A DNA stretch of 64,000 nt from NCBI GenBank assembly GCA_963697895.1, contig OY969100.1:1-64000 (forward strand), in the 5' to 3' direction. Shown one piece after another: positions 36,810-57,787 of the stretch. The notes under the pieces are model-generated. The model saw only the letters and a program-made list of their open reading frames with translations. It did not search any database and was not told where the DNA came from. This DNA comes from an uncultured Methanomicrobiales archaeon. GTDB lineage: Archaea; Halobacteriota; Methanomicrobia; Methanomicrobiales; Methanospirillaceae. How positions within the stretch are numbered: the first letter of the stretch is position 1; each line of letters starts with the position of its first letter. The position numbers and the translations under genes were made by a program.

Positions 36810-37053
36810 ACCGATCATGGGCATATGGGATGTCCTGCATGTAAAGTCATCTGACGGGGATCTCGTCCGGCATCGAACGGGTTCCTTCGTTTCCGGGGTT
36901 GACCACAATCCGGACCATGACCCCGGGAAGGATCGTCATTGCGCATGCGAAGCCTCGATCGTGCTCTCCGCCCGTTACAGACGGAAACGATCCCGGCACT
37001 TTCCTCTGCCGAAGCCCATATCTCTCCCCTGCACGCATATCACCGATCATCGC

Positions 37054-42664: not shown

Positions 42665-42761
42665 ATTTTCTACCTCAGGTTTTTTGCACGGGGATGCATG
42701 TACACTCCCCGTTTTTATCGTACGTTGATTTCGGCATACATTCGTGGGTGAATTGTTCTTA

Positions 42762-42870
42762 TCAGCAGTTGATCATCAAATGCTGGAGCGGTGAAATAAT
42801 TTCGTTCCCGAAATTATCCTCCGGTTATCCGTTCGTTTCGGAATTGCTGAATCTTAGATGGATCAACTAT
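42762..42870 (-). promoter_or_regulatory. Conserved structured 5' leader, copy 1 (TATA CTTATA at 42893-42898)
   Basis: AGTTGATC/GATCAACT closing stem and GATAATTTCG-GGAA-CGAAATTATT hairpin. Conserved upstream of all four paralogs. Confidence 0.65.
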
Positions 42871-43003
42871 CTGTTTCATACACCCAGGCGGATATAAGAC
42901 TTGTGCTGGGGTTTTTCAATTCGGGAATTTTTTCCCAAAATTCTGTAAACCGCATAAAAAAAAAGATTATGGGGAGGATTTCCCTCCTCCCGTGGTTCAC
43001 CGC

Positions 43004-46000
43004 CTAGAAGGGCGGGAGCATGGGCAGGATGTAGTCGCGGGGCGGGAACGGGACCGGGGAGGGGTTGTCGCTGTCGGCCCAGGAACCTCCGTGCGTGTAC
43101 CCGTAGTTCGGGTCGGAGGTCAGGTCGCCTGTAACGAAAAACCCTTGTGTCGTGTTTCCGCTGCTCGTCTCGGTGTATGACGCGAGGGTATCCCAGTCGA
43201 GGAACCCGTTGTGGAATGTTCCGCCGTCCGGGTCCAGGAATGCGTAGGTGTGACCGTTGGCGACACTCACCGTGGCATTGTCTTCAGGGATGTTGACGAT
43301 GTTGTTGTACGGCCCGGCCCGTGCCGCGGCGGAGAGGTTCACCTTCGTCATGTCCGCATTCGCGAAGGTCCCCTTTGCATCGTTGGTCGCGTTCACCTCT
43401 GCACCGAAGAGTGCGAGGGCGTCCGCATGGGATGCGTTTGCAGGATCGTTACCGGGAGAGAATGCGATCGAGTAGTTGATCGAGGCATTCTGTTGTACCC
43501 ATCCGAAGGTGAGCGCTTCCGCTTCGTTCCCGTCGCTGACCTGAACGGTGCTGACCCCCTTGCCGGCAGCGCTCGCGTTGGAGACCACCTTGGGGACGAC
43601 CGGATCGATATCGAGTATGTTGCTGTCAGCCGTTGCGGTGCCGACGGCATCGTAACTGGCACAGGCATCCACCTTCGACTTCTTGCCGTACCCTTCCCCG
43701 GCGGCGTAGCTGAAGAGGAGGTTTTCGTCGGTGACGGTCTCGAGGTTGATGTCGACATGCGCATCGCTCGTGGATCCGACGCCGGAGACACCGAGCGCCT
43801 CTCCCTTGACGGCCGAGGCGTAGCTGGTCACATCAGCCGTACTCGATGCGTTTGCACTCGGGGCAACGATCGGGCTGTATCCGTCGTACGGAGCCGTCAC
43901 CTGGGATCCCGTTGCGCCGGCAGATCCCTTCGCTGACCCGCCGGCCTTCCCGTTGTCCCCGCCGGTCGCCGATAGCGTGGCGATAAGGGTACTGTCACTG
44001 GTGTTCATCGCCGGGACATACACAAGGACCGGATCGGGATAGACCTCGTTTTCACCAAGGGCCAGGATCAGCGATGCAGCAAACGGGTCTTTGCACATGT
44101 CGCTCGCAGTCGCATAGGCCGAGACATCGCCCTGCGCCTGGCTGGACTGCGTTCCGTTCCAGCCCGGAATCTGAGCGTAGTTAAGGGCAGAGGTATCCCC
44201 GCCCGCATCTGCGGAGGCCTTAGCGGTCTCCTTGGAACAGTCGGTATCAGCTGCGGCGAGACCTGCGATCACCGAGAAGACGTCCTGGTCTATCGTTCCA
44301 CTGATGGAATTGACATCGGTCAGCGAACCCGATGCTTCACCGGCAAGGGACAGGCCAAACCCGCCCTTCGCTGCCTCGGCCGTGGTTATGGCGTGCGATC
44401 CCGAGACCGACGTGGACGTGAAGTTGCCGTCCGGCACAAAATCATCGTCGAGGTCGGCAGTGAACTGAGCCAGAGCGGTGGCCTCACGGCCTTCGACCGG
44501 TACGAGTTTGATCTCTTTCACTTTGCCTTTCTTGTCCTTGCAGACCAGTTCCTGCATGTTGACGAAGGCTGTGGCCTTACCGTTGTCGTCCGCCAGGGAG
44601 AGCGCCCCGTCGAGCGTGATGGCGTGCCCGCCACCAGTGTCGACATCATCGATGGAGGATTCGGATTCGCTGGATGCCCCCTGTGCCGCTACACCGAGGG
44701 CGAAACCGTTATCGCTCGTGGTGCTGGCAGTGGTCCTGACCGTTGCGTCAGCGCTGCTGGTGGAATTGGTGATATAGAGACTGTTACCTGCCGTGGTCGT
44801 GTTGAGGACCTGGGTTGAATCCGCGAAAGCGGTGCCGTTGGCAGAGCCCCAAGTGTCGGCAGACTTGCCCGATGATGCAGAGAGGCTGCCGACCAGAGCG
44901 GCGTTGTAGGCCTCGCCGATCCCGGCGAATGACTCATCGAGACTTCCGCCGAAATCGTTGTATGCCACGATTGCAGAGACCGAGAGCGGGTCACCGCATC
45001 CGGCGTTCGCACTTCCGCTCACGGTTCCGGATGCATTGGTCACGCCATCAGCGGAGAAATACCTCCCGAGACCGAGATCGGAATAGTACGTGCTGCTGGT
45101 CCCGGCTTCTCCGTCAGCAAAGGTATCGGCCTTCGCAGACCCGGACTTGCCAAACTGCTGGGCAAATGCTGCCTGTCCTACGATGCTGCCTGCTGTCTCC
45201 CCGGCGCTAACGCCTCCATTGTCGAAACTTATGCCGGTTCCTTCACCGGAGAGGATCGCATCGGCGGCCAGGGCGACACCGTTCTTGGTGCTGACATCGG
45301 AGCATGCCTTACCGATTGCGAAGGCATCCGACGTGATGTTCAGTTCCGTTAAATAGATGGGATCACCGATGATGGTCTGGTGCAGGATCGAGCCGTTTGC
45401 GTCGGTCTGGCCGTTGGCGTAGGCATGTGCTCCTGCCGTCCCGGCCGAGAATGCGCCGGTCCCGATCAGGGCCACGTCCACCAGTGAGGGATCAGATTCA
45501 ACAGTATCGGTAGCATAATCTGCCGAACCGATTGCGGCTGCAGAAAGACCCAGTCCGCCATTTGCGTTGGCAGACGTGCTCACCGTGCCGGAAGAGCCCG
45601 ATGGTCCGAGTGAGGACAGAAGAAGAGAACCAAAGCCTCCGGCGGCGTTTGCATCCCCGGTTGCGGTACCCCATGTCTTACCGGATGCAGCCCCGGAGGT
45701 GCTCCCGATCAGGGTGGCGTCAAGCCCGGAAGCTTCAGCGCCTTGTCCGTCTAGTTGGGTAACGACAAAGGGAACGCCGATTCCCTGTGCGGAGACTCCG
45801 ACAATGAACGATGCGGATGCCGGGTCATGGTCGCACTTCGCTCCGGCCTCGGCCCCGCCCGCGACGGTTCCGGCGGCAGAGCTGCTGCCACTGGCTTCCA
45901 GGATCTCGGTGAATACAGACAGACCATCGGCCGCGGTCTCACCGTCTGCACAGGCCTCGGCGGTCTTTTTACCGCTGTCGCTCCCGGATGCGGAGACCGA

Positions 46001-47617
46001 CTGGGAGATGATGCTGATCTCGAGTACATCGATCGGGGGCAGGTCGAACGTTAGTTGCGGTGCCGGCAGCTGCTGCAGGAGGCCCGGATTAATGGAACTG
46101 AGATCCCCGGTGATCGGACTATTTGGCAGATTCTGCGTGTCCGGCACCTGCGGGAGAGTGACACTCTCCTCAACCGGGTTGATCAGGTCAAGACTAAAGG
46201 TACCTTCATCAGCACCGATCAGGTCGAAGGAGGCGATCTGGGAGTCGGCATACGCTTCGCCGCATCCTTTGACGTCAACCTTTGCGGTAATATCGCCCGT
46301 GGCGCTGGTGTTGGAGATATATACTCCCGAGGGGATTTCGCCGTTCCAGACCAGCATGGCATCGGCGGCGCCCTCTTTGGTCGAACCGGCCGCCGACACC
46401 TTGGCATTCTTGTCGTACCCGGTTGCCCAGGCATCGCTCCGGATGACGCTCCCGTCAGCATATTCGGGACTGAAGGTGAAGTTCAGATATGCGAACTCGG
46501 GCCCGAACCCCAGGGCGAATGCCTCCATAGGGACGTCAGCAAATGCCAGAATCTGGGATTCGCTGCCGGCTTCACCCTTGCTGTCGCAGATAGAAGCGGA
46601 GCTTTTTGCCGTCCCGGAGGTGTTCGCATAGAGTTCGTTCTCCTCGAGGTTTACCGTACCATAATATGCCGTGTTCTGTTTCCCGACCGGTGTCGATGCG
46701 GATGAAGAGGCGGTTGCGGTATACTTTCCGGTTCCGCTCCATACCGAGCTGCGGGACGAGATGTTGCTCTCCACATACCCCCATGTAATGCCGTTTTCCG
46801 CTTCGGAGCTGACCACGGCATCGGAGCTGAAACCGCCGCTCCCCTTCCCGGATCCGTCAGCCTTCGTGGAACCCGTCACGTATGCGGTTGCATTTCCCGG
46901 GAACGGGATTGTAAACGCTTCGGCGGTGGCTGAGGCGTTACCCGAGGCCCAGGCTCCGCCGGAGGCCTGGTTCTCGCCGTATACATCGGCATAGATCAGG
47001 GCGTTCGCAGCGGGATCGGCATCCAGCAGCTGCGTAGAAGCCCCGGAGCTAATCCCTCCCGTCGCATTGAGTATGCTGATGCAGGCACTCTGCACCTTAC
47101 CACTTGCACTGGAAGACCCGGAGACATTTGTCTGGAGCTCGGTCCCGTTGTATGTGGCAGACGCGGACCCCGATGAGCAGACCTCCCCCTCGGCCGTGCC
47201 TTTGTTGCCGGAGTCGAGGGCGACGGTGCTCGTGATGGACGAATTGATCACGGCATTGCCGGCACCATCATCGGATCCCTCAGCCTTGACGCTGCCATTG
47301 AGTATTGCCGTGCCTGTCCCGGTAGTCTTGCCGCTCGCCTTGATGTTCGAGTCGAGGCTGACCGTGATCTTCCCGTCGCCGCTGGTGGCGGTGTCCGTTC
47401 CGCCGTTCGTCGCGTCTTTGACGGTTGCTTTGTTCTGCAGCTTTACATTCACATTCTTCTCGACCGTGGCCGAGTTCTGGGTGGTACTATGCTGGTTGGA
47501 ATAGTCCACCTGGGCATCACCCTGGATGACCACCGCGGTTACGGCGCCGGCCAGTAATGCGATGACCAGGATGACTAGGATGCCCATTATCAGGTGTGTT
47601 CGGGATTTCATTTTCAT
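43004..47617 (-). CDS. Large secreted repeat protein, paralog 2 of 4
   Basis: Colinear with paralog 1. Start placed at MKMKSR (47617) by alignment and the GAGGT RBS. Confidence 0.9.
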   Translation of the reverse strand: MKMKSRTHLIMGILVILVIALLAGAVTAVVIQGDAQVDYSNQHSTTQNSATVEKNVNVKLQNKATVKDATNGGTDTATSGDGKITVSLDSNIKASGKTTGTGTAILNGSVKAEGSDDGAGNAVINSSITSTVALDSGNKGTAEGEVCSSGSASATYNGTELQTNVSGSSSASGKVQSACISILNATGGISSGASTQLLDADPAANALIYADVYGENQASGGAWASGNASATAEAFTIPFPGNATAYVTGSTKADGSGKGSGGFSSDAVVSSEAENGITWGYVESNISSRSSVWSGTGKYTATASSSASTPVGKQNTAYYGTVNLEENELYANTSGTAKSSASICDSKGEAGSESQILAFADVPMEAFALGFGPEFAYLNFTFSPEYADGSVIRSDAWATGYDKNAKVSAAGSTKEGAADAMLVWNGEIPSGVYISNTSATGDITAKVDVKGCGEAYADSQIASFDLIGADEGTFSLDLINPVEESVTLPQVPDTQNLPNSPITGDLSSINPGLLQQLPAPQLTFDLPPIDVLEISIISQSVSASGSDSGKKTAEACADGETAADGLSVFTEILEASGSSSAAGTVAGGAEAGAKCDHDPASASFIVGVSAQGIGVPFVVTQLDGQGAEASGLDATLIGSTSGAASGKTWGTATGDANAAGGFGSLLLSSLGPSGSSGTVSTSANANGGLGLSAAAIGSADYATDTVESDPSLVDVALIGTGAFSAGTAGAHAYANGQTDANGSILHQTIIGDPIYLTELNITSDAFAIGKACSDVSTKNGVALAADAILSGEGTGISFDNGGVSAGETAGSIVGQAAFAQQFGKSGSAKADTFADGEAGTSSTYYSDLGLGRYFSADGVTNASGTVSGSANAGCGDPLSVSAIVAYNDFGGSLDESFAGIGEAYNAALVGSLSASSGKSADTWGSANGTAFADSTQVLNTTTAGNSLYITNSTSSADATVRTTASTTSDNGFALGVAAQGASSESESSIDDVDTGGGHAITLDGALSLADDNGKATAFVNMQELVCKDKKGKVKEIKLVPVEGREATALAQFTADLDDDFVPDGNFTSTSVSGSHAITTAEAAKGGFGLSLAGEASGSLTDVNSISGTIDQDVFSVIAGLAAADTDCSKETAKASADAGGDTSALNYAQIPGWNGTQSSQAQGDVSAYATASDMCKDPFAASLILALGENEVYPDPVLVYVPAMNTSDSTLIATLSATGGDNGKAGGSAKGSAGATGSQVTAPYDGYSPIVAPSANASSTADVTSYASAVKGEALGVSGVGSTSDAHVDINLETVTDENLLFSYAAGEGYGKKSKVDACASYDAVGTATADSNILDIDPVVPKVVSNASAAGKGVSTVQVSDGNEAEALTFGWVQQNASINYSIAFSPGNDPANASHADALALFGAEVNATNDAKGTFANADMTKVNLSAAARAGPYNNIVNIPEDNATVSVANGHTYAFLDPDGGTFHNGFLDWDTLASYTETSSGNTTQGFFVTGDLTSDPNYGYTHGGSWADSDNPSPVPFPPRDYILPMLPPF

Positions 47618-47706
47618 AACCTCAGGTTCTTGCACGGGGATGTGTTTTCCTCCCCGTTTTTTCTCACATGTCAATTTCTGCATACGTTCAGGATGAAATC
47701 TTCTTG

Positions 47707-47814
47707 TCAGCAGTTGATCACCAAATGCTGGAGCGGGGAAATAATTTCTTGTCTGAAATTATACTCCGGTAACCACTCTTTCCGGAATTGCTGAATCGGA
47801 GGTGTATCAACTAT
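47707..47814 (-). promoter_or_regulatory. Conserved structured 5' leader, copy 2 (TATA at 47837-47842)
   Basis: Same stems as copy 1 with different loop sequences. Confidence 0.65.
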
Positions 47815-47951
47815 GGGTTCAATAAACCTAGGCAGGTATAAGACTTGCGCTGCCGGATTTTCGACTCCATAGAGATTTTCCAGACATTAAAGGCCGGATT
47901 GCAAAAAAGAAGATTAGCGGGAGGAATTTCAGTCCTCCCGTGGTTCACCGC

Positions 47952-50900
47952 CTAGATGGGCGGGAGCATAGGCAGGATGTAGTCGCGGGGCGGGAACGGG
48001 ACCGGTGACGGGTTGTCGCTGTCGGCCCAGGAACCTCCGTGCGTGTACCCGTAGTTCGGGTCGGAGATCAGGTCGGCGGCGATGAAATTCCCGTTTGTCG
48101 TGTTCCCGCTGCTCGTCTGGGTGTACGTCGCCAGGGTGTCGATGTCGAGGAGCCCGGTGTGGGATATTCCGCCGTCCGGGTCCAGGAACGCCCAGGTGTG
48201 ACCGTTGGCGACACTCACCGTCGCATTGTCCTCAGGTATGTTGACGATGTTGTTATATGGCCCTGCACGTGCCGCGGCGGAGAGGTTCACCTTCGTCATG
48301 TCCGCATTCGCAAAGGTCCCCTTCGCATCGTTGGTCGCGTTCACCTCGGCACCGAAGAGTGCGAGGGCGTCCGCGTGGGATGCGTTTGTGGGATCGTTAC
48401 CGGGAGAGAATGCGATCGAGTAGTTGATCGAGGCGTTCTGCTGTACCCATCCGAAGGTGAGCGCTTCCGCTTCGTTCCCGTCGCTGACCTGAACGGTGCT
48501 GACCCCCTTGCCGGCAGCGCTCGCGTTGGAGACCACCTTGGGGACGACCGGATCGATATCGAGTATGTTGCTGTCAGCCGTTGCGGTGCCGACGGCATCG
48601 TAACTGGCACAGGCATCCACCTTCGACTTCTTGCCGTACCCTTCCCCGGCGGCGTAGCTGAAGAGGAGGTTTTCGTCGGTGACGGTCTCGAGGTTGATGT
48701 CGACATGCGCATCGCTCGTGGATCCGACGCCGGAGACACCGAGCGCCTCTCCCTTGACGGCCGAGGCGTAGCTGGTCACATCCGCCTTGCTCGATGCGTT
48801 TGCACTCGGGGCAACGATCGGGCTGTATCCGTCGTACGGAGCCGTCACCTGGGATCCCGTTGCGCCGGCAGATCCCTTCGCTGACCCGCCGGCCTTCCCG
48901 TTGTCCCCGCCGGTCGCCGAGAATGTGGCGATCAGCGTCGAGTCCCGGCTGTCCATGACCGGGACAGCGGCATCGTTCGGATCCGGATATGCGTTGTTCT
49001 CCCCGAAGGAAAGGATCAGCGATGCGGAGATCGGGTCCTTACAGGTATCGCCGGCCTCGGCCGATCCCGAAACGCTGCCGTCTGCGGAGCTGGACTGCGT
49101 GCCGTTCCAGTCCGGTACCGATGCGTAGCTGAACGCACCGGTGCTGCCGGTTGCCGACGCGGAAGCCTTTGAGGTCTCCTTTGGCTTATCCGGGTCAGCT
49201 GCGACGACATCCGCGATCACGGAGAAGACGTCCTGGTCAGCCTGGGGAACACCGTTGCCCAAAGCATCGGAGACCAGGTCAGTGAATGAACCGGAGGCCT
49301 CGCCCGAGAGGGCAAAGGCGGACCCGCCCTTCGCGGCCTCGGCCGCAGAGCTGGCGCTCGATCCCGAGAACGAAGTTGACGTGGCGTTGATGTCGGGCGT
49401 ACCGTCATCAGTGATGTCGGCGGAGAACTGGCTCACCGCCGTGGCTTCCCGGTCAATGACGGGAATACACTCGACTGATTTCACTTTTCCTTTCTTATCC
49501 TTGGTTATCTTCTCTTCCTTGTTGACGTCGGCTGTGGCCTTGCCGTTGCCGTCTGCCAGGGAGAGCGCTCCGTCGAGCGTGATCGCGTGCTCGTCGGCGG
49601 CGACGGTTTCACCGTAGACTACTGCACTCACTTCGCTGGAGGCACCCTGGGCCGCAACCCCGAGGGCGAACCCGTCGGGGCTCGTTGTACTCGCGGTGGT
49701 CTTGACCTTCGCGTCGGCGGCGCTCGTGGCGTTCCATACATAGAGGCTGTCATCCTCCAGCGTTGTGTTCACGAGAAGGGATGAGTCCGCGAGGGCAGTT
49801 CCGTCAGCAGCCCCCCAGGTGTCGGCAGACTTTCCCCACGACGCGGAGAGGCTGTCAATGAGGCCGGCGCTGTACGTCTCCCCGCCGCCGTAAAATGATC
49901 CCGCATCAACCGAACCGCCGCCTCCGAATTCGGTGAATGCGACGATCCCGGACGCCGAGAGCGGGTCACCACAACCGGCGTTTGCGCTCCCGCTCGCTGT
50001 TCCGTCGGCATCGGTCGTGCCGTACCCGGCGATGAATGCACGGTTGTCGATCCCATCGGTGGAACCGAGGTCGAGATAGAAGCTGCTGCTGGTCCCTGCC
50101 TCGCCGTCAGCCTTGGTATCCGCTTTTGCTGACCCGGACTTGCCGAACTGCTGGGCGAATACGACCTGGCCGACCATGCTCCCCGCGGTGCCGCCACCGC
50201 CACCGGAGGATTGGAGTCCACTGGCACCGGTTCCTTCACCGGAGAGGAGGACGTCGGCCGCGAGCGCGATTCCGTTCTTGGTGCTGACATCGGAGCATGC
50301 CGTGCCATCTGCAAAGGCAGCTGAGGTGACATTCAGCAGGGTGATATTCTCAATCGGACCGTCCTCGATGGAGATCTGGCGCAGGATGGACCCGTTCGCT
50401 TCGGTCTGGCCGTCCGCGAATGCGTGCGCCCCTGCAGTCCCGGCGGCGAATGAGCCGGTCCCGATCAGGGCGACGTCCACGAGGTCGCCTTCGATCACAT
50501 TGAAGGATTCATAATCAGCCGAGCCGATTGCGGCTGCAGAGAGCCCCAGTCCGCCGTTTGCGGTGGCAGATGTGCTCACCGTACCGGACGAAACCGATGG
50601 CCCGGTTGCGGGAATAAATCCTCCGGAAGCCTCTGCATCCCCCGAAGCCGTGCCCGAGGTCTTACCCGTCGGGCCGCCGGCCCCGGAGGTGCTTCCGATC
50701 AGGGTCGCATCCAGTCCCTGATTCCCGTCGATGCCCTGTGCGGAGACACCGAGGATCACCGATGCGGATGCGGGGTCGTCGCCCTTCCCGCCGGCCTCGG
50801 CACCGCCCACGACTCTGCCCGATGCTGAGCTGCTTCCCGTGAATGCAGCGGTGACGAAATTTTCTGGGGTATAAATATACGTGTGCTGTCCGTCGGCAGT

Positions 50901-52511
50901 GGTCTCACCATCTGCACATGCGCTGGCGGTCTTTTTACCGCTGTCACTGCCGGAGGCGGAGACCGACTGGGAGATGATGCTGATCTCGAGCACATCGATG
51001 GTGGGGAGATCAAACTCGAGTTGCTGTTCCGGCTGCTGCAGGATGGCCTGATCGACCAGACCGGGTTCCGGGAGCGTGACGCAGCCCTCCACCGGGCCGA
51101 TCAGGTCGAGGCTGAAGGTGCCGTCACCGGCGCCGATCAGGTCGAAAGACGCGATCTGAGAGTCGGCATCCGCCCGCCCGCTGCCCTTGATGTCCGCCTT
51201 TGCGGAGGTGTCACCCTTGGCGCTGGTGTTGGATGAAAAAATTATCCCTTCAACCCCCTGAGTCTGGTTGACATTGAGCACCGCGTTTGCCGCACCCCAT
51301 GTCGAAGCGGCCGCCGATACCTTGGCGTTCTTGTCAAACCCGTTTGCATATGCGTCGCTCTGGAGGATGGTGGTGTCAATGTATTCGGGATTGAAGCTGA
51401 AGTCCAGGTACGCGAACTCGGGTCCGAACCCGAGCCCCGGATCCTTCAGAGGGATGGCGGCATATGCATCGATCGACGATTCGCTGCCTGATTCACCCCT
51501 GCTGTCGCAGATGGACGCGATGCTGCCGGCGGTCCCCGTGGTGTTCACATAGAATTCGTGCTCCTCCGATGGAGGTGCTCCGTAATATGCCGTGTTCTGT
51601 TTTCCGACCGGAGTCGATGCGGACGAGGAGGCGGTGGCGGTATACTTTCCGGTTCCGCTCCATACCGAGCTGTCGGACGAGATCTCGCTCTCGACGTGCG
51701 TTTCACTGATGGGATCTACTGCTTCGGATGCGATCGCCGCATTGGAGGTAAACCCGCCCGAGCCTTTTCCGGAGCCGTCCGCCTTCGTGGTACCCGTTAC
51801 GTACGCGGTCAGATTGCCCGTGTCCGCACTGGCGGAGGCGTTCCCTGAGGCCCAGGCCCCGCCGGAGGCCTGGTTCTCGCCGTATACGTCGGCATAGATC
51901 AGGGCATTCACCGTGGGGTCATAATCCAGCAGATTGGATGCCTGGGACGTGATCCCTCCCGTCGCATTGAGTATGCTGACGGAGGCACTCTGCACTTTAC
52001 CACTTGCCTTGGAAGACCCGGAGACATTCGTCTGCATCTCGGTCCCGTTGTACGTGGCGGATGCGGTCCCGGACGAGCAGACCTCGCCCTCGGCCGTTCC
52101 TTTGTTACCGGAGTCGAGGGTAACGCTGCTCGTGATGGACGAGTTGATCACGGCATTGCCGGAGTCGTCATCGGACCCCTCGGCTTTGACGCTGCCGTTC
52201 AGGATCGCGGTGCCGGTCCCGGTCGTCTTGCCGCTCGCTTTGATGTTTGAGTTGAGGTTGACCGTGATCTTCCCGTCGCCGCTGGTGGCGGTGTCTGTTC
52301 CGCCGTTCGTTGCGTCTTTGACGGATGCTTTGTTCTGCAACTTTACGTTCACATTCTTCTCGACCGTAGCCGAGTGCTGGGTGGTACTATGCTGGTTGGA
52401 ATAGTCCACCTGGGCATCGCCTTCGATAACCACCGCGGTTACGGCGCCGGCCAGTAATGCGATGACCAGGATGACGAGAATGCCCAGCATCAGGGGTGTT
52501 CGGGATTTCAT
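47952..52511 (-). CDS. Large secreted repeat protein, paralog 3 of 4
   Basis: 1519 aa, colinear with the others. Shorter Pro/Gln linker. Confidence 0.9.
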   Translation of the reverse strand: MKSRTPLMLGILVILVIALLAGAVTAVVIEGDAQVDYSNQHSTTQHSATVEKNVNVKLQNKASVKDATNGGTDTATSGDGKITVNLNSNIKASGKTTGTGTAILNGSVKAEGSDDDSGNAVINSSITSSVTLDSGNKGTAEGEVCSSGTASATYNGTEMQTNVSGSSKASGKVQSASVSILNATGGITSQASNLLDYDPTVNALIYADVYGENQASGGAWASGNASASADTGNLTAYVTGTTKADGSGKGSGGFTSNAAIASEAVDPISETHVESEISSDSSVWSGTGKYTATASSSASTPVGKQNTAYYGAPPSEEHEFYVNTTGTAGSIASICDSRGESGSESSIDAYAAIPLKDPGLGFGPEFAYLDFSFNPEYIDTTILQSDAYANGFDKNAKVSAAASTWGAANAVLNVNQTQGVEGIIFSSNTSAKGDTSAKADIKGSGRADADSQIASFDLIGAGDGTFSLDLIGPVEGCVTLPEPGLVDQAILQQPEQQLEFDLPTIDVLEISIISQSVSASGSDSGKKTASACADGETTADGQHTYIYTPENFVTAAFTGSSSASGRVVGGAEAGGKGDDPASASVILGVSAQGIDGNQGLDATLIGSTSGAGGPTGKTSGTASGDAEASGGFIPATGPSVSSGTVSTSATANGGLGLSAAAIGSADYESFNVIEGDLVDVALIGTGSFAAGTAGAHAFADGQTEANGSILRQISIEDGPIENITLLNVTSAAFADGTACSDVSTKNGIALAADVLLSGEGTGASGLQSSGGGGGTAGSMVGQVVFAQQFGKSGSAKADTKADGEAGTSSSFYLDLGSTDGIDNRAFIAGYGTTDADGTASGSANAGCGDPLSASGIVAFTEFGGGGSVDAGSFYGGGETYSAGLIDSLSASWGKSADTWGAADGTALADSSLLVNTTLEDDSLYVWNATSAADAKVKTTASTTSPDGFALGVAAQGASSEVSAVVYGETVAADEHAITLDGALSLADGNGKATADVNKEEKITKDKKGKVKSVECIPVIDREATAVSQFSADITDDGTPDINATSTSFSGSSASSAAEAAKGGSAFALSGEASGSFTDLVSDALGNGVPQADQDVFSVIADVVAADPDKPKETSKASASATGSTGAFSYASVPDWNGTQSSSADGSVSGSAEAGDTCKDPISASLILSFGENNAYPDPNDAAVPVMDSRDSTLIATFSATGGDNGKAGGSAKGSAGATGSQVTAPYDGYSPIVAPSANASSKADVTSYASAVKGEALGVSGVGSTSDAHVDINLETVTDENLLFSYAAGEGYGKKSKVDACASYDAVGTATADSNILDIDPVVPKVVSNASAAGKGVSTVQVSDGNEAEALTFGWVQQNASINYSIAFSPGNDPTNASHADALALFGAEVNATNDAKGTFANADMTKVNLSAAARAGPYNNIVNIPEDNATVSVANGHTWAFLDPDGGISHTGLLDIDTLATYTQTSSGNTTNGNFIAADLISDPNYGYTHGGSWADSDNPSPVPFPPRDYILPMLPPI

Positions 52512-52608
52512 ATTTTCTACCTCAGGTATTTTGCACGGGGATGCATGTACGCTCCCCGTTTTTATCGTACGTTGATTTCGGCATACATTCGTGAGTGAAT
52601 TGTTCTTA

Positions 52609-52718
52609 TCAGCAGTTGATCACCAAATGCTGGAGCGGGGAAAATAATTTCGTACCCGAAATTATCCTCCGGTTATCCGTTCGTTTCGGAATTGCTGAAT
52701 CTTAGATGGATCAACTAC
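52609..52718 (-). promoter_or_regulatory. Conserved structured 5' leader, copy 3 (TATA at 52741-52746)
   Basis: Nearly identical to copy 1. Confidence 0.65.
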
Positions 52719-52850
52719 CTGTTCCATACACCCAGGCGGATATAAGACTTGTGCTGCGGATTTTTCACTATCGGGAATTTTTTCCCAAAATTCTGTAAAC
52801 CGGATAAAAAAAGATTAGGGGAAGGGATATCCCCATTCCGTGGTTCACGC

Positions 52851-55800
52851 CTAGATGGGCGGGAGCATGGGGAGGATGTAGTCGCGGGGGGGGAACGGGA
52901 CCGGTGCCGGGTTGTCGCTGTCGGCCCAGGACTCGCCGTGCGTGTACCCGAAGTTCGGGTCGGTGGTCAGGCTCTGTTCGACGAACTTCCCGCTGGTCGC
53001 GTCGCCGTTGCTCGTCTGGGTGTATGTCGCGCTGGTGTCGAAGTTGAGGATGCCGTTGTGGAATGATCCGCCGTCGGGGTCCAGGAAGGCCCAGGTGTGA
53101 CCGTTGGCGACCTTTACCGAGGCGTTGTCTTCAGGGATACCGAAGTCCGGGAAGCTTGCCCGTGCCGCTGCAGAGAGGTTCACCTGCGTCATGTCCGCAT
53201 TCGCGAAGGTCCCCGTCGCATCGTTGGTCGCGTTCACCTCGGCACCGAAGAGTGCCAGGGCGTCGGCGTGGGATGCGTTCACGGGATCGCCCAGATCCGT
53301 GAAGTTGACCGAGGCGTTCTGCTGTACCCATCCGAAGGTGAGCGATTCTGCCAGGTTCGCGTCGGTGACCTTGATCGTACTGATCCCCTTGCCGGAGGCG
53401 TTCGAGGTGGAGTTCACGGCTGAAGCCGCCAGGTCCCGGTTGAAGACGTTGCTGTCTGCCGCTGCGGTGCCGACCGCATCGTACCCGGCAGAGGCATCGG
53501 CTGTCGCTTTCTTGCCGAAGCCCTCGCCTCTCGCGTAGCTGAAGAGGAGGTTTTCGTCGGTGACCGTCTCAAGGTTGACATCGACGTGCGCATCGCTCGT
53601 CGATCCCACGCCAGCGAGACCCAGGGCAACTCCGTTGCTGGCCGCTGCCTTGCTCCACACGGTTGCATCGCTCGATGCACTGGTGGTGGGGCTCAGGGGG
53701 GTGCTGCCGTATTCGGGCACCAACTGTACTCCGTCAGCATTGGCCGAACCGCATGCATCCGCACCCGTATCGCCCTTCGTCCCGTTCGTTGCGGAGAAGC
53801 TGGCGATCAGGGTCGTGTCATGGTTGTCCATGGTGGGGAGATAGCCACCCGTAAGAGGATCGGGAGAGACCGAGTTCTCGCCAATTGCCAGGATGAGCGA
53901 GGCCGATATCGGGTCCTTGCACTTGTCACCGCCTACAGCCGAGGCTGAAACTCTTCCATCGGCAGCGCTCGTCTGCGTGCTGTTCCAGTTCGGTACCGCT
54001 GCATAGCTTAGGGCATTGGTGTCTCCGCTTGCCGACCCGGAGGCCTTGGCCGTCTCCTTCGGGCAGTCCGTCTCCGCAACGGCGAGGTCCGCGATCACGG
54101 AGAAGACGTCCTGGTCGGCCTGGGGAATGCCGTTGCCCAAAGCATCGGAGACCAGGTCAGTGAACGCACCGGATGCTTCACCCGCAAGGGACAGGGCAAA
54201 CCCGCCCTTCGCGGCTTCGGCAGCGGAGCTGGCGCTGGATCCCGAGAACGAGGACGACGTGGCGTTGATGTCAGGCGTACCGTCATCGGTCGTATCCGCG
54301 GTGAACTGGCTAAGAGCAGTCGCATCCCGATCCATGACGGGGATACACTCGACCACGGTTGTCTTTCCAACCTTCTTGCTCTTATATTCCTTGTTGACGT
54401 CTGCCGTTGCCTTGCCTTCTCCGGCCACTACGGATAGTCCTCCGTCGAGCGTTATGGCGTGCTCTTCGCCGAACTCGCCGATTTCACCGAGGATGGATGC
54501 ATCAACTTCGCTGGACGCACCCTGGGCCGCAACCCCGAGGGCGAAGCCATCCGGGCTCCTGGTACTGGCGGTGGTCTTGACCTTTGCATCCGCGGTGCTG
54601 TTGGTGTTCCACACATAGAGGCTGAAGTCTGCCGGTGTGGTATTCACGATCAGGGAAGAGTCCGCGAGTGCAGCGCCATCTGCGAAGCCACAGGTATCGG
54701 CAGACTTGCCCCACGATGCCGAGAGGCTGCCGACCGTTGCGGCGCTGTAAGACTCTCCGCTTCCGACGAACTCCTCAAACGTATCAGGCGTGGATACCGA
54801 TCCGCCCACACCGGAGTCGGTGAAGGCGACGATCGCCGATGCCGAGAGGGGGTCACCGCAGCCGGCGTTCGCGTTTCCGCTCACCGTTCCGGAGGCACCG
54901 GTCGTGCTGTCTCCGGCAATATACATCTCGTCGCCGCTCGGACCTTCACCGAGGTCGATGTAGAAGGTACTGCTGGTACCTGCTTCACCATTGGCATTGG
55001 TATTCGCGATTGCAGATCCTGATTTGCCGAACTGCTGGGCGAATGCGACCTGACCGACCATGCTCCCTGCAGTGGTGTCGCCGGCACCGATGAGAGAGGA
55101 TCCACTGGTACTGATACCTTCACCGGCGAGGAGGACGTCTGCCGCAAGTGCGATGCCGTTCTTGGTGCTGACATCGGAGCATGCCGTGCCATCTGCAAAG
55201 GCAGCCGAGGTGACATTCAGCAGGGTGATATTTTCACCCGGATCGTCGGGAATGAAGATCTCGTTCAGGACGGACCCGTTCGCTTCGGTCCGGCCGTCTG
55301 CGAATGCGTGGGCCCCTGCAGTACCGGCGGCGAATCCCCCGGTCCCGATCAGGGCGACATCCACGAGTTCGCCATCACTACTCCCTTCGTCGGCGGCAAA
55401 GTCAGCCGAACCGATGGCAGCGGCCGAGAGGCCCAGTCCGCCATTTGCATTGGCAGACGTGCTTACTGTCCCGGACGAGCTCGAAGGCCCTAATATTGGA
55501 CGAACGCTACCGGCTGCATTCGCATCACCCGAAGCCGTGCCCCAGGTATTGCCGGATGCGGCACCGGAAGTGCTGGCGATCAGGGTCGCGTCAAGCCCGG
55601 AGTCTGAATCGATCCCCTGTGCTGAGACCCCGAGGATGACCGATGCCGATGCCGGGTCGTGGTCGGACTTTGTCCCGGCCACAGCCCCGCCCTCGACTCT
55701 GCCGGACGCATTGCTGCTCCCGGTGGAACCACTGGTTACACTGCCTGAAATCTCCGTTAATGTGTTCCGCCCATCGGCCGCGGTCTCACCGTCTGCGCAG

Positions 55801-57437
55801 GCGCTGGCGGTCTTTTTACCGCTGTCGCTGCCGGATGCAGAGACCGACTGGGAGATGATGCTGATCTCGAGGAGATCGATGGGGGGGAGGTCGAACGATA
55901 GTTGTTGCGGGGCCGGTTGCTGCAGGATGCCCGGATTGATCGAACTGAGATCTCCTGTTACCGGAGTATTTGGCAGATTCTGTTCCGGTATCTGCGGGAG
56001 CATAACGGAGTCCTCAATGGGGCTGATCAGGTCAAGGCTGACGGTACCTCCACTGGTGCCGATCAGGTCAAATGAACCGATCTGGGACTCGGCATTCGCA
56101 TTCCCGCAGCCCTTGAGGTCGACCTTCGCAGAGGTGTCTCCAGTGGCACCGGTGTTGGAGGCGATGGCGGTCTGGAAGTCCTCCGGGGGAGTGGAGATAA
56201 CAAGCGCTGCATTTGCCGTACCTCTGGTCGAACCGACCGCCGATACCTTGGCATTCTTGTCATACCCGGTGGCGTTGGCGTTGCTCCCGATGAAGCTCGC
56301 GTCACCGGAAGAAGCGTTGATGATGAAACTAAGATTCGCATATTCGGGCCCCAACTGGAAGTTCGCCACGCCCGAACCGTTTATGGCCGCCGCGAAGATA
56401 TCGCCATAGCTGCCGGCCTCGCCCCTGCTGTCGCAGATGGATGCCTGGCTCGAGGCGGTACCGGTGGTATTGGCCACCTGCTCGAGTGCTCCCCCGGCCT
56501 CCACTCCGGCATAATATGCCTCATTCTGTTCCCCGATCGGGGTGGATGCGGATGAAGACGCGGATGCCGTATACTTACCCGTTCCACTCTCTCCGAAACT
56601 TTCGGAGTAGATGTCAGAGGAAACGATATCTCCTGACGATCTGCTTTCCGTATAGGATTCGATATCGGCATCAGTGAGGAAGTCTCCCGAGCCCTTGCCG
56701 GAACCGTCCGATCTCGTGGATCCGGTCACCGATGCGGTGAGATTCCCGTTGTCTGCTGATGCGCCGGCGCTGCCCGACGCGCCCGCAGATCCGGATGCCG
56801 TGTTCTCACCATACACGAAGGAAAAGATCACGGCATCCGTGCTGTAGTTTCCATTTATGACCGAAGAATTTGAGAAGACACCACCGGTCGCATTGAGTAT
56901 GCTGACGGAGGCACTCTGCACTTTACCACTTGCTTTGGACGACCCGGAGACATTCGTCTGCATCTCGGTCCCGTTATACGTGGCGGATGCGGACCCGGAT
57001 GCGCAGACATCCCCCTCGGCCGTACCTTTGGTGCCGGAGTTGAGGGTGACGCTGCTCGTGATGGACGAATTGATCACGGCATTGCCGGAGTCGTCATCGG
57101 ATCCCTCGGCCTTGACGCTGCCATTGAGTATTGCGGTGCCGGTACCGGTCGTCTTACCGCTCGCCTTGATATTCGAGTCGATATTGACCGTGATAAGCCC
57201 GTCGCCGCTTGTGGCGGAGTCTGTCCCGCCGTTCGTCGCATCTTTAACGGTTGCTTTGTTCTGTAGCTTTACATTCACATTCTTCTCGACCGTGGCCGAG
57301 TGCTGGGTGGTACTATGCTGGTTTGAATAGTCCACCTGGGCATCGCCCTGGACGACCACCGCGGTGACCGTTCCAATCAGTAACGCGATAACCAGGATGA
57401 CTAAAATACCTATCATAAATTGTTTTCGGGATTTCAT
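52851..57437 (-). CDS. Large secreted repeat protein, paralog 4 of 4
   Basis: Colinear with the others. Start placed at MKSRKQF (57437). Confidence 0.9.
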   Translation of the reverse strand: MKSRKQFMIGILVILVIALLIGTVTAVVVQGDAQVDYSNQHSTTQHSATVEKNVNVKLQNKATVKDATNGGTDSATSGDGLITVNIDSNIKASGKTTGTGTAILNGSVKAEGSDDDSGNAVINSSITSSVTLNSGTKGTAEGDVCASGSASATYNGTEMQTNVSGSSKASGKVQSASVSILNATGGVFSNSSVINGNYSTDAVIFSFVYGENTASGSAGASGSAGASADNGNLTASVTGSTRSDGSGKGSGDFLTDADIESYTESRSSGDIVSSDIYSESFGESGTGKYTASASSSASTPIGEQNEAYYAGVEAGGALEQVANTTGTASSQASICDSRGEAGSYGDIFAAAINGSGVANFQLGPEYANLSFIINASSGDASFIGSNANATGYDKNAKVSAVGSTRGTANAALVISTPPEDFQTAIASNTGATGDTSAKVDLKGCGNANAESQIGSFDLIGTSGGTVSLDLISPIEDSVMLPQIPEQNLPNTPVTGDLSSINPGILQQPAPQQLSFDLPPIDLLEISIISQSVSASGSDSGKKTASACADGETAADGRNTLTEISGSVTSGSTGSSNASGRVEGGAVAGTKSDHDPASASVILGVSAQGIDSDSGLDATLIASTSGAASGNTWGTASGDANAAGSVRPILGPSSSSGTVSTSANANGGLGLSAAAIGSADFAADEGSSDGELVDVALIGTGGFAAGTAGAHAFADGRTEANGSVLNEIFIPDDPGENITLLNVTSAAFADGTACSDVSTKNGIALAADVLLAGEGISTSGSSLIGAGDTTAGSMVGQVAFAQQFGKSGSAIANTNANGEAGTSSTFYIDLGEGPSGDEMYIAGDSTTGASGTVSGNANAGCGDPLSASAIVAFTDSGVGGSVSTPDTFEEFVGSGESYSAATVGSLSASWGKSADTCGFADGAALADSSLIVNTTPADFSLYVWNTNSTADAKVKTTASTRSPDGFALGVAAQGASSEVDASILGEIGEFGEEHAITLDGGLSVVAGEGKATADVNKEYKSKKVGKTTVVECIPVMDRDATALSQFTADTTDDGTPDINATSSSFSGSSASSAAEAAKGGFALSLAGEASGAFTDLVSDALGNGIPQADQDVFSVIADLAVAETDCPKETAKASGSASGDTNALSYAAVPNWNSTQTSAADGRVSASAVGGDKCKDPISASLILAIGENSVSPDPLTGGYLPTMDNHDTTLIASFSATNGTKGDTGADACGSANADGVQLVPEYGSTPLSPTTSASSDATVWSKAAASNGVALGLAGVGSTSDAHVDVNLETVTDENLLFSYARGEGFGKKATADASAGYDAVGTAAADSNVFNRDLAASAVNSTSNASGKGISTIKVTDANLAESLTFGWVQQNASVNFTDLGDPVNASHADALALFGAEVNATNDATGTFANADMTQVNLSAAARASFPDFGIPEDNASVKVANGHTWAFLDPDGGSFHNGILNFDTSATYTQTSNGDATSGKFVEQSLTTDPNFGYTHGESWADSDNPAPVPFPPRDYILPMLPPI

Positions 57438-57535
57438 TTTTCGTAACCTCAGGTTCTGCACGGGATTGAAGTCTTATCTTTCCGTTTTCAGATTACATCG
57501 TTCATTCTGCACGAATTCAGGGTGAAAATTTCTTG

Positions 57536-57643
57536 TCAGCAGTTGATCACCAAATGCTGGAGCGGTGAAATAATTTCGTACCGGAAATTATCCTTCATTA
57601 ACCCTTCTTTTCGGAATTGCTGAATCGGGGGTGGATCAACTAT
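57536..57643 (-). promoter_or_regulatory. Conserved structured 5' leader, copy 4 (TATA at 57666-57671)
   Basis: Same stems, with changes that preserve pairing. Confidence 0.65.
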
Positions 57644-57787
57644 GGGTTCAATACACCCGGGCAGGTATAAGACTTGCGCCGCCCGGATTTTCGACTCCGG
57701 GAAATATTTTTCAGACTCACAAGACAGGACGGTATTCTTTCAGATAAAAAGAGGGAATGGTTTGTAGAACGGATCTTCCATCTCCCG

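What the first reader, a model, noticed from the sequence alone, without database searches (positions are those of the whole stretch)
42762..57643. Conserved structured 5' leader with two mutually exclusive folds upstream of each paralog (candidate archaeal riboswitch-like element)
Seen on the minus strand at 42762-42870, 47707-47814, 52609-52718 and 57536-57643: a ~110-nt element starting about 23 nt after the CTTATA box, where a TSS is expected. P1 is AGUUGAUC/GAUCAACU, and its extension varies while keeping pairing (AU/AU in copy 1, AC/GU in copy 4, AU/GU wobble in copy 3, CACC/GGUG in copy 2). An inner hairpin AUAAUUUC/GAAAUUAU has four different loops and a varying paired base (GGAGG/UUUCC in copy 3, UGAA/UUCA in copy 4). 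The 3' strand of P1 can instead form CAGCA-U-UUG...CAA-C-UGCUG, and an invariant upstream UCAGCA can also pair with UGCUGA. The element is better conserved than the flanking leader. Inference: a cis-regulatory RNA switch. I do not recognise it as a known family. It could instead be a set of palindromic DNA operators.
Basis: partly seen in the sequence, partly recalled or inferred. Interest (0 to 1): 0.78.

Follow-up and report, generated by a model that had tools for sequence, protein, structure and literature searches.

The report
Structured leader of surface-protein paralogs
Each copy of a repeated giant surface-protein gene in this methanogen-type archaeon is preceded by a folded stretch of untranslated mRNA that most likely ties up the message's first bases and protects it, not a metabolite-sensing switch.

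Summary
Four tandem paralogs (1519-1535 aa, minus strand) each carry a TATA box, then a ~115-nt element at the coordinates given, then a ~100-nt poorly conserved spacer, a hairpin, a Shine-Dalgarno site and ATG. The element is an island of conservation between diverged non-coding flanks.

A fifth paralog 1.28 Mb away is the key comparison. Its P1 arms are 17/18 identical, while the interior is only 39-42/89 identical. It still has a hairpin at the P3 position, and the hexamer pairing next to P1 is kept through changes on both sides. The local alternative hairpin is not kept.

There is no Rfam match. No copy turned up in 150 genomes of the same family, and the protein family was absent from 227. 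I see no terminator or SD-sequestering platform.

Best reading (0.4): a gene-family-specific structured 5' UTR whose long-range helix, possibly a pseudoknot, sequesters the mRNA 5' end and stabilises the message, as in S-layer gene leaders. A ligand riboswitch is unlikely (0.06). A sequence-specific protein-binding site remains a real rival (0.22). No TSS or RNA data could be obtained.

The parts
42758..42872 (-). Leader element, copy 1 (upstream of the gene at 38105-42664)
   Evidence: CM R1 hit of 140.8 bits. Sub-parts: P1 5' arm 42868-42861; P1 extension 42859-42857 with 42777-42775; 5' hexamer UCAGCA 42850-42845; P3 hairpin 42817-42796; P1 3' arm 42774-42767; 3' hexamer UGCUGA 42767-42762.
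47703..47816 (-). Leader element, copy 2 (upstream of the gene at 43004-47611)
   Evidence: CM hit of 134.1 bits. P1 5' arm 47812-47805 reads AGTTGATA; the bulge is shifted and CACC/GGUG pair. 3' arm 47719-47712; P3 47762-47741; hexamers 47794-47789 and 47712-47707.
52605..52720 (-). Leader element, copy 3 (upstream of the gene at 47952-52511)
   Evidence: CM hit of 134.1 bits. P1 arms 52716-52709 and 52621-52614; extension AUC/GGU with a U.G wobble; P3 52665-52643 with one extra U; hexamers 52698-52693 and 52614-52609.
57532..57645 (-). Leader element, copy 4 (upstream of the gene at 52851-57437)
   Evidence: CM hit of 137.5 bits. P1 arms 57641-57634 and 57548-57541; extension ACC/GGU; P3 57591-57570; hexamers 57623-57618 and 57541-57536.
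42891..42898 (-). TATA box of copy 1 (CTTATATC). Equivalents lie at 47835-47842, 52739-52746 and 57664-57671.
   Evidence: Invariant in alignments A1 and A4. The spacing to P1 is the same in copy 5, 29 nt from the first T of TTATA (read). This places the predicted TSS 0-4 nt before P1. The TSS is an inference and is not mapped.
42688..42712 (-). Hairpin before the ribosome-binding site, copy 1. Equivalents lie at 47634-47658, 52535-52559 and 57460-57485.
   Evidence: Predicted in the consensus fold of all five leaders (columns 202-208 with 221-227). The sequence differs in copies 4 and 5 while most pairs are kept.
42662..42678 (-). Shine-Dalgarno CTGAGGT (42678-42672) and ATG (42664-42662) of copy 1. 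The other ATGs are at 47611, 52511 and 57437.
   Evidence: Conserved in all five copies.
38105..42664 (-). Paralog 1, 1519 aa. Paralogs 2-4 lie at 43004-47611 (1535 aa), 47952-52511 (1519 aa) and 52851-57437 (1528 aa).
   Evidence: The N-terminus is basic then hydrophobic, signal-like, and the protein is rich in S/T/G/A (read). There is no Pfam, NCBIfam, PDB-sequence or Atlas hit. The model of residues 31-430 is all-beta.
42972..42991 (-). Terminator-like hairpin followed by a T run, after the stop of paralog 2. A second one lies at 52818-52834 after paralog 4.
   Evidence: sequence. It suggests that each paralog is its own transcription unit.

Best explanation
The element is the first ~110 nt of a ~210-nt 5' UTR that each paralog transcribes from its own TATA promoter. 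The first bases of the mRNA (AGUUGAUC, at or within about 4 nt of the predicted start) pair with GAUCAACU about 90 nt downstream. This P1 helix has 8-9 pairs plus a 3-4-pair extension. It closes a domain that holds a stable hairpin (P3).

The six bases that follow the P1 3' arm (UGCUGA) pair with UCAGCA inside the domain. That helix either stacks on P1 as an H-type pseudoknot or serves as a second closing helix.

I infer that this fold hides the 5' end from 5'-end-dependent decay (5'-to-3' exonucleases of the RNase J / beta-CASP type) and so gives a long-lived, heavily translated message for an abundant secreted surface protein. That is what the long structured leaders of S-layer genes do in bacteria. 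It would be a constitutive stabiliser domain, not a ligand sensor.

Shown here: the sequence features, their conservation pattern, and the pairing kept in a diverged copy. Inferred: the TSS position, that the RNA folds this way in the cell, that the gene is highly expressed, and the stabilising effect.
For: 1. Conservation island. Promoter plus element are 0.81-0.92 identical, against 0.47-0.54 upstream and 0.68-0.69 in the spacer.

2. The fifth paralog. A CM built from copies 1-4 finds it as the only extra hit in the genome, at 23.9 bits and E 0.03. Its interior is homologous in the same orientation, with 0-3.4% of shuffles scoring as high, but only 39-42/89 identical, while the P1 arms are 17/18 identical.

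3. Pairing kept on the sense strand only. These are U.G in the extension of copy 3, a bulge shift in copy 2, and col15/102 reading CG, UA and UG. P3 is 100% paired in 5/5, with copy 5 changed on both sides in 5 of 8 pairs in a model-fitted alignment.

4. The hexamer helix, which was not part of the model, is 100% paired in 5/5. Copy 5 shows C-G>U-A, U-A>G.U and A-U>G.U. It is the only fully pairing hexamer in each copy. In copy 5 a hexamer pairs at the aligned place in 3.8% of shuffles.

5. Position. The TATA-to-P1 spacing is identical in copies 1 and 5. In Methanolobus psychrophilus dRNA-seq, BRE/TATA lie about 19-22 nt from the TSS (PMC5378194, passages read). That puts the start 0-4 nt before P1.

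6. Independent transcription units: a terminator-like hairpin with a T run lies upstream.

7. Precedents. The Methanosarcina slmA1 S-layer mRNA has a 154-nt, >91% conserved UTR with predicted structure and unknown role (PMC3361143, passages). The Lactobacillus slpA 5' UTR forms a stabilising structure and the mRNA half-life is 14-15 min (PMC3666127, passage). Long 5' UTRs stabilise mta mRNAs in a methanogen (cited in PMC5378194).

8. An RNase J-type gene is present in the genome.
Against: - No TSS, RNA-seq or half-life data exist for this organism in the tools. No RNA run was listed.
- There are in effect only three independent sequences: copies 1/3, copies 2/4, and copy 5.
- The single-sequence tests are weak. 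A 9-bp hairpin occurs somewhere in 9.6% of shuffled copy-5 interiors. A fully pairing hexamer occurs anywhere in 28%.
- The eight core P1 pairs never vary, so they say nothing for pairing. Their strict sequence conservation is more than a structure-only stabiliser needs.
- With the RNA starting exactly at the A of P1, the nested minimum-energy fold of copies 1, 3 and 4 is the alternative fold, by 3.0, 1.4 and 0.6 kcal/mol.
- High expression of these paralogs is assumed, not shown.
- The RNase J-like gene is split over two reading frames in this assembly.
Confidence: 0.4

Rival explanations
1. Sequence-specific protein-binding site. The two P1 arms, an inverted repeat with a GATC core, are recognised by a protein. 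One option is binding as DNA: a transcription factor at the start site and again about 90 bp downstream. The other is binding as the P1 RNA duplex, for instance feedback by the surface protein or a dedicated regulator. Either would co-regulate or choose among the five paralogs.
For: - The P1 arms are 17/18 identical in copy 5, where the interior is 39-42/89 identical. This is sequence constraint, not only pairing.
- The 5' arm overlaps the predicted start site, a usual place for archaeal repressors (general knowledge, recalled).
- The 10 nt before it are also shared by copies 2, 4 and 5.
- The arm pair is unique to these five promoters in the genome.
Against: - G.U wobbles and the shifted bulge keep complementarity only in the sense-strand RNA.
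- Start-to-start arm spacing varies from 89 to 95 nt, so it is not kept in helical phase (computed).
- P3 and the hexamer helix change sequence but keep pairing.
- Apart from the leader arms, the other 9 occurrences of the 9-mer were not seen beside a comparable promoter. Three lie in the paralogs' own coding sequence and 817288 lies in AT-rich sequence I did not look into.
- The 5' arm could be fixed by promoter or initiator needs, and the 3' arm by pairing with it.
Confidence: 0.22
2. Ligand-sensing riboswitch or other conformational RNA switch. P1 formation competes with the CAGCA..UGCUG hairpin or with UCAGCA:UGCUGA, and a metabolite or ion tips the balance.
For: Two nested folds lie within 0.6-3 kcal/mol in copies 1, 3 and 4. 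The 218-nt leader of copy 1 takes the alternative fold. The 15-mer around UCAGCA is invariant in copies 1-4.
Against: - The local alternative hairpin is lost in copy 5, where P1 is the clear minimum-energy fold: -37.8 against -30.8 kcal/mol with the 5' arm unpaired.
- The junctions diverge while the helix is fixed.
- The P3 loops differ in every copy.
- No terminator or SD-occluding partner follows. The element ends about 85 nt before the SD.
- No Rfam family reaches its gathering score in the window, and none reaches E<=5 in four leaders.
- CM R2 finds nothing credible in 150 genomes of the family, and BLAST finds 0 of 40.
- The regulated gene is a structural surface protein, not a metabolic or transport gene.
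Confidence: 0.06
3. No function of its own. The similarity is a by-product of tandem duplication and patchy gene conversion among the paralogs, and the helices are chance palindromes.
For: - The paralogs are mosaics, with segment identities from 0.48 to 1.00, so conversion is active.
- Copies 1 and 3 are 0.93-0.97 identical through the element and spacer.
- The coding 5' end is more conserved than the element.
- The shuffle tests on copy 5 are individually weak.
Against: - The element is flanked on both sides by less conserved non-coding DNA, so a conversion tract running out of the coding region does not explain it.
- The unlinked copy 5 keeps exactly the two arms, 89 nt apart, while what lies between has diverged.
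- Contigs of three of the four metagenome runs laid cover the element at roughly 80-95% likeness.
Confidence: 0.12
4. Processed leader RNA. The ~115-nt domain is cut off and accumulates as a stable small RNA, or cleavage near UGCUGA creates the mature mRNA 5' end.
For: The fold is compact, with both ends in one helix. The spacer downstream is poorly conserved.
Against: There is no RNA evidence of any kind. No match to known small-RNA families was found. No second target is apparent.
Confidence: 0.1

Closest known systems
Stabilising structured 5' UTRs of S-layer genes (Lactobacillus slpA type) and 5'-terminal stem-loop stabilisers of bacterial mRNAs (ompA and aprE; these two recalled, not from a call)
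   Same: A long untranslated leader in front of a secreted surface-protein gene. A helix involves the very 5' end of the message. There is no ligand and no link to metabolism. The slpA leader is reported to form a stabilising secondary structure (PMC3666127, passage read).
   Different: This is an archaeal promoter and archaeal decay machinery. The closing helix is long-range, about 90 nt apart, enclosing a domain, and may be a pseudoknot; it is not a simple terminal hairpin. Stabilisation is untested here. There is no sequence similarity.
Conserved 154-nt 5' UTR of the Methanosarcina S-layer gene slmA1
   Same: A methanogen surface-layer gene with a mapped long UTR, more than 91% conserved between species, with predicted secondary structure and paralogous genes. 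Its role is stated to be unknown (PMC3361143, passages read).
   Different: A different protein family (the proteins here have no Pfam domain) and a different lineage. I could not compare the UTR sequences or folds, because the predicted structure is in that paper's supplement, which is closed.
Riboswitches (Rfam families)
   Same: A cis-acting folded leader with a closing P1 helix and possible alternative pairings.
   Different: There is no Rfam hit, no conserved junction core and no expression platform. The element is confined to one gene family in one genome lineage.
Viral exoribonuclease-resistant RNAs (xrRNA)
   Same: The idea of a pseudoknotted fold that blocks a 5'-to-3' exonuclease. 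Here a helix at the 5' end is stacked on a second helix made by the adjacent 3' bases.
   Different: xrRNAs form a ring around their 5' end from a three-way junction, and they are viral. None of that is shown here, and there is no Rfam xrRNA match. Of the 11 papers holding 'exoribonuclease-resistant', 'archaea' and 'pseudoknot', the 6 listed concern viruses, databases or tools (listing only).

Membership tests
Riboswitch (ligand-binding cis-regulatory RNA) | Match to a described aptamer family | tested here: not met
   0 matches at gathering score in the 64-kb window. At E<=5, the 3 matches in four of the five leader loci (L001, L003, L004, L007; copy 3 not given) all lie outside the leaders.
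Riboswitch (ligand-binding cis-regulatory RNA) | Junction and loop nucleotides conserved while helices covary | tested here: not met
   Copy 5 against copies 1-4: P1 arms 17/18 identical, interior 39-42/89. The P3 loops all differ.
Riboswitch (ligand-binding cis-regulatory RNA) | Expression platform (terminator or SD sequestration) coupled to P1 | tested here: not met
   No U-run or terminator-like site lies between the element and the ATG on the minus strand. The SD lies about 85 nt downstream, behind an unrelated hairpin.
Riboswitch (ligand-binding cis-regulatory RNA) | Alternative folds conserved among homologues | tested here: not met
   The local hairpin CAGCA..UGCUG is absent in copy 5. 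Only UCAGCA:UGCUGA-type pairing is kept.
Riboswitch (ligand-binding cis-regulatory RNA) | Ligand binding | not testable with these tools
   Needs in-line probing, SHAPE or ITC.
5'-terminal mRNA stabiliser / structured S-layer-type leader | Helix begins within a few nt of the mRNA 5' end | tested here: inconclusive
   The TSS is only predicted. TATA-to-P1 spacing is fixed in copies 1 and 5 and fits the 19-22 nt TATA-TSS distance of another methanogen. No RNA run was available.
5'-terminal mRNA stabiliser / structured S-layer-type leader | Structure conserved among homologues | tested here: met
   96.6-97.5% of cells are paired and 6-8 pairs are changed on both sides, with 0/500 shuffles as high. 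Sliding the partners gives 20-56% paired. Caveat: only 5 related sequences, and the alignment is partly fitted to the model.
5'-terminal mRNA stabiliser / structured S-layer-type leader | Lengthens mRNA half-life; gene highly expressed | not testable with these tools
   No transcriptome or half-life data.
DNA operator (palindromic transcription-factor site) | Inverted repeat conserved in sequence at the promoter | tested here: met
   The arms are 17/18 identical in all copies. The 5' arm lies at the predicted TSS.
DNA operator (palindromic transcription-factor site) | Symmetry valid on double-stranded DNA (no dependence on G.U) and fixed spacing | tested here: not met
   The extension and hexamer helices rely on G.U pairs in copies 3 and 5. 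Start-to-start arm spacing is 89-95 nt (computed).
Invertible DNA segment (inverton) flanked by inverted repeats | Both orientations of the segment occur | tested here: not met
   The copy 5 interior aligns forward (score -3 to 3). Its reverse complement scores -10 to -12, near the shuffle mean of -13 to -14. No strand-changing joint appears in contigs of the 4 runs laid.
Dispersed MITE-like repeat | Many copies at unrelated loci | tested here: not met
   BLAST finds 4 copies, the CM finds 5, and the arm pair occurs only at the paralog leaders.

The most novel reading that the evidence does not exclude
The leader is a new class of archaeal 5'-terminal pseudoknot. P1, which contains the first transcribed bases, stacks coaxially on the UCAGCA:UGCUGA helix formed by the bases immediately 3' of P1. 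This makes a knotted cap-like fold that mechanically blocks 5'-to-3' exonucleases, a cellular analogue of viral exonuclease-resistant RNAs. Alternatively, by toggling between P1 and the second closing helix, the fold exposes or hides the 5' end and so sets which of the five surface-protein paralogs is expressed.
Probability: 0.12. Interest if true: 0.7.

Novelty: new member of a known kind. Interest (0 to 1): 0.36.

Why it matters
Post-transcriptional control in archaea is poorly charted, and the roles of the long 5' UTRs of methanogen surface-layer genes are explicitly unknown (PMC3361143). This leader offers a compact, testable case: a ~110-nt domain with a defined 5'-end helix, a candidate pseudoknot and a natural diverged variant (copy 5) that already serves as a mutate-and-rescue experiment.

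If the stabiliser reading holds, it would be a portable expression element for methanogen genetics, and it would show how archaeal mRNAs evade RNase J-type decay.

As it stands, it is a lineage-restricted leader of an orphan gene family. Comparative support is thin and there are no expression data, so its general importance is modest.

Tried and rejected
**Searching for more homologues, which mostly failed**
- BLAST of the leader found 0 of 40 relatives.
- The protein profiles found 0 of 200 and 0 of 227 genomes of the family.
- Peptide-pattern scans found none in genome contigs (twice), none in metagenome contigs and none in viral contigs.
- The DNA pattern of the two arms matched 118 stretches in metagenome contigs. 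None had a tblastn hit to the protein or a blastn hit to the leader, so all are taken as chance.
I did not call it.

**Expression**
- No RNA holder was listed.
- Parts of the stretch without cover in the laid contigs, and one contig that skips 42665-42745, are not interpreted.

**Other negative or uninformative results**
- CM R2 gave one hit in 150 family genomes, in G142 at E 0.034. It lies inside a 274-aa ORF and bears no resemblance, so I rejected it as chance.
- A small hairpin (UCCG..CGGA) and the P2 helix (GGAG/CUCC) of copies 1-4 are broken in copy 4 and/or absent in copy 5, so I do not claim them.
- The consensus fold paired the promoter with the SD region. I rejected this because the promoter is not transcribed under the predicted TSS.
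- A mini-ORF, (A/G)TG ATC AAC TGC TGA, over the P1 3' arm has no equivalent start in copy 5 (read).
- An anti-SD-like stretch occurs in copy 2 only.
- K-turn: no tandem G.A pairs were seen (by eye).
- Protein identity: Pfam, NCBIfam, PDB sequences and the Atlas all gave nothing. The AlphaFold model of residues 31-430 (pLDDT 65, pTM 0.74) is all-beta, and its best Foldseek PDB match has E 0.058 and TM <=0.13, so no fold is assigned.

- One search failed because an item was over 150 nt. I re-sent the items as single folds.
- One search failed on the term format. I re-worded it.
- Supplements of PMC3361143 (predicted UTR structure) and PMC5378194 (TSS tables, promoter figure) are closed and may bear on the comparison.


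Full report
**What is there**

The window comes from a 2.09-Mb single-contig genome that encodes McrA, so it is a methanogen-type archaeon. Between 38.1 and 57.4 kb lie four head-to-tail paralogs on the minus strand, 1519-1535 aa long. Their ATGs are at 42664, 47611, 52511 and 57437.

The proteins start with a basic then hydrophobic signal-like segment and are rich in S/T/G/A (read). They have no Pfam, NCBIfam, PDB-sequence or Atlas relative. A model of residues 31-430 is an all-beta meander with no significant PDB match. In a 5.8-billion-protein collection the family has 12 members: the genome's five paralogs and eight metagenome proteins, one counted in both lists only if P0001-P0003 and P0005 are the own copies as their contig length indicates.

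Each intergenic region reads, in order:
- the stop of the upstream paralog;
- a terminator-like hairpin with a T run;
- a diverged stretch;
- AAGT-CTTATA(T/C)C;
- 22 nt, then the element;
- a ~100-nt spacer;
- a hairpin;
- CTGAGGT and the ATG.

**Checking the observation**

- Each copy folds better than its shuffles, with z-scores of -3.5, -4.3, -4.0 and -1.4. The minimum-energy fold of the 120-122-nt stretch contains P1 and the inner hairpin in all four.
- The arm pair AGTTGATC..(30-200 nt)..GATCAACT occurs in the genome only at these leaders.
- BLAST finds only the four copies.
- In 60-nt windows, promoter plus element are 0.81-0.92 identical on average, the DNA upstream of the promoter 0.47-0.54, and the spacer 0.68-0.69.
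- The first ~500 nt of coding sequence is higher still, at 0.84-0.96.

So the element is a non-coding conservation island, but it is not the best-conserved part of the repeat unit.

**The fifth copy**

A profile of the N-terminal 300 aa found a fifth paralog at G000:C1:1321309 (+), 1.28 Mb away. BLAST with the leader had missed its upstream region. The region nevertheless has a TATA box (TTTATACC) at the same distance from ATAGTTGATCC, and GGATCAACTA lies 89 nt further on.

A covariance model built from copies 1-4 only finds it as the single additional hit in the genome, at 23.9 bits and E about 0.03.

Its interior is homologous in the same orientation. The forward score exceeds 96.6-100% of shuffles, and the reverse complement scores like a shuffle. 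So it is neither an inverted nor a replaced cassette. It has diverged strongly:
- interior 39-42/89 identical;
- spacer 15-20/40 identical;
- P1 arms 17/18 identical. The one change turns U.G into U-A.

This copy therefore shows what is constrained.

**Evidence for RNA pairing**

- P1 extension. The pairs are AUC/GAU, AUC/GGU, ACC/GGU, and CACC/GGUG with the bulge moved. Complementarity is kept with wobbles that work only in the sense RNA.
- P3. All five copies are fully paired. Copy 5 has a 9-bp hairpin of different sequence at the aligned place, and 5 of 8 pairs are changed on both sides. This alignment is fitted to the model, and a 9-bp hairpin turns up somewhere in 9.6% of dinucleotide shuffles of that interior. 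So this is supportive, not decisive.
- The hexamer that starts at the last base of the P1 3' arm. In all five copies it pairs with one, and only one, hexamer inside the domain, at the same place. In copy 5 the pair has become GCAGUG:UACUGU, that is C-G>U-A, U-A>G.U and A-U>G.U. This helix was not in the model used to align. In 3.8% of shuffles a hexamer pairs at that place, and in 28% anywhere.
- Whole structure. 97.5% of cells are paired against 20-53% when the partners are slid, and 0/500 column shuffles reach the observed covariation. The usual caveat applies: five related sequences are in effect three.

The order of the strands is P1-5', hexamer-5', P1-3', hexamer-3', with no base between the last two. 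If both helices form, they make an H-type pseudoknot with coaxial stacking. If not, they are two alternative closing helices. I cannot tell which.

**The proposed switch**

If the RNA starts at the A of P1, the nested minimum-energy fold of copies 1, 3 and 4 is the alternative fold: GUUGA:UCAGC plus the CAGCA..UGCUG hairpin. It wins by 3.0, 1.4 and 0.6 kcal/mol. In copies 2 and 5, P1 is the minimum. The 218-nt leader of copy 1 also takes the alternative fold.

So competing folds exist on paper. But the local hairpin and GUUGA:UCAGC are not kept in copy 5. A few more 5' bases tip copies 1-4 to P1. Pseudoknot energy is not counted by these programs.

**Against a riboswitch**

- No Rfam match.
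- Helices are fixed while junctions drift.
- The P3 loops all differ.
- No terminator or SD partner follows.
- Nothing credible turned up in 150 genomes of the family with a five-copy model. The one hit, at E 0.034, lies inside an ORF.
- The gene served is an orphan structural surface protein, absent from 227 genomes of the family and from the species-representative and viral collections.

**Position of the 5' end**

No RNA run holds this sequence, so the TSS is inferred. The TATA-to-P1 distance is the same in copies 1 and 5. In Methanolobus psychrophilus the BRE/TATA lie about 19-22 nt from mapped starts (PMC5378194, passages). Applied here, that gives a start at one of the purines 0-4 nt before, or at, the A of AGUUGAUC. 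The message would then begin inside P1.

**Mechanism proposed**

A helix that engages the first bases of an mRNA, in front of a very large secreted surface protein, matches the stabilising leaders of S-layer genes. The Lactobacillus slpA UTR forms a stabilising structure and the mRNA half-life is 14-15 min (PMC3666127, passage). The Methanosarcina slmA1 UTR is 154 nt long, conserved and predicted to be structured, and its role is unknown (PMC3361143, passages). Methanogen mta mRNAs are stabilised by long UTRs (cited in PMC5378194). Euryarchaea have the 5'-3' exonuclease aRNase J (PMC7144898, abstract in the listing). This genome has an RNase J-type gene, although it is split over two frames in the assembly.

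I therefore read the element as a constitutive 5'-end-sequestering stabiliser domain (0.4).

The strict sequence conservation of both P1 arms is not explained by structure alone. Either the 5' arm is fixed by promoter or initiator function and the 3' arm by pairing with it, or a protein reads the arms as DNA or as duplex RNA (0.22). The remaining rivals are conversion relic (0.12), processed small RNA (0.1) and riboswitch (0.06).

**Relatives in the environment**

Contigs from three of the four metagenome runs laid cover the element at about 80-95% likeness. Examples are pieces on 42666-42907 with 19 differences, on 42705-42908 with 35, and on 42763-42963 with 11. The differences shown are those already seen among the paralogs. 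One is 42776 T>C, which makes the U.G pair of the extension. Others are 42854/42855 T>G. Only the best-supported differences are printed, so no new covariation test was possible.

**Verdict**

It is a new, lineage-restricted structured leader with no Rfam family, of a known general kind. The riboswitch label is not supported. The candidate pseudoknot at the mRNA 5' end is the part worth an experiment.

Noticed in passing
G000:C1:1321103-1325877 (+), outside the window; locus L007 positions 1262-1503 for the leader: A fifth paralog of the surface-protein family lies alone 1.28 Mb from the tandem array. Its leader keeps the TATA spacing, the P1 arms, a P3-like hairpin and the hairpin before the RBS, but little else.
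   Followed up: yes
window 38105-57437: The four tandem paralogs are mosaics. Pairwise identity per 60-nt window swings from 0.48 to 1.00, and different pairs are closest in different segments: copies 1 and 4 reach 0.95-0.98 around 38967-39567, and copies 2 and 3 reach 0.95-1.00 around 38673-38967. This suggests repeated gene conversion, as in variable surface-protein families.
   Followed up: partly
window 42688-42712, 47634-47658, 52535-52559, 57460-57485; L007 1453-1477: A second conserved hairpin (CGGGG..CCCCG type) sits about 10 nt before the Shine-Dalgarno site in all five leaders. Its sequence changes in copies 4 and 5.
   Followed up: partly
window 42972-42991 and 52818-52834 (-): A G+C-rich hairpin followed by a run of up to 9 T lies directly after the stops of paralogs 2 and 4. 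It looks like a terminator, about 70 nt before the next paralog's TATA box.
   Followed up: partly
window 28000-36000: A low-G+C stretch (0.44-0.50 against about 0.60 elsewhere) holds a tyrosine integrase gene at 31908-32828 (-) (Phage_integrase, E 8e-31). It may be an integrated element a few kb from the paralog array.
   Followed up: partly
G000:C1:1403880-1405224 (-); locus L136: The RNase J-type gene (TIGR00649, 318 + 134 bits, below the family cut-off) is split into two overlapping ORFs of 144 and 318 aa in different frames. This is either a frameshift or an assembly error.
   Followed up: partly
window 42762-42777 and equivalents: A four-codon mini-ORF, (A/G)TG ATC AAC TGC TGA, overlaps the P1 3' arm in copies 1-4. 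It has no SD and no equivalent start in copy 5, so it is probably fortuitous.
   Followed up: partly
window 43473, 48421; G000:C1:1325412: The 9-mer of the P1 arm also occurs inside the C-terminal coding region of three paralogs, in the same conserved protein segment. It is probably chance.
   Followed up: no
window 36673-37923 (+), 57788-58996 (-), 26746-27963 (-): Genes flanking the array are a CLP1 P-loop kinase-like protein and a PLP-dependent enzyme with an ACT domain. Further off is a DUF5806 protein. I see no functional link to the surface-protein genes.
   Followed up: no
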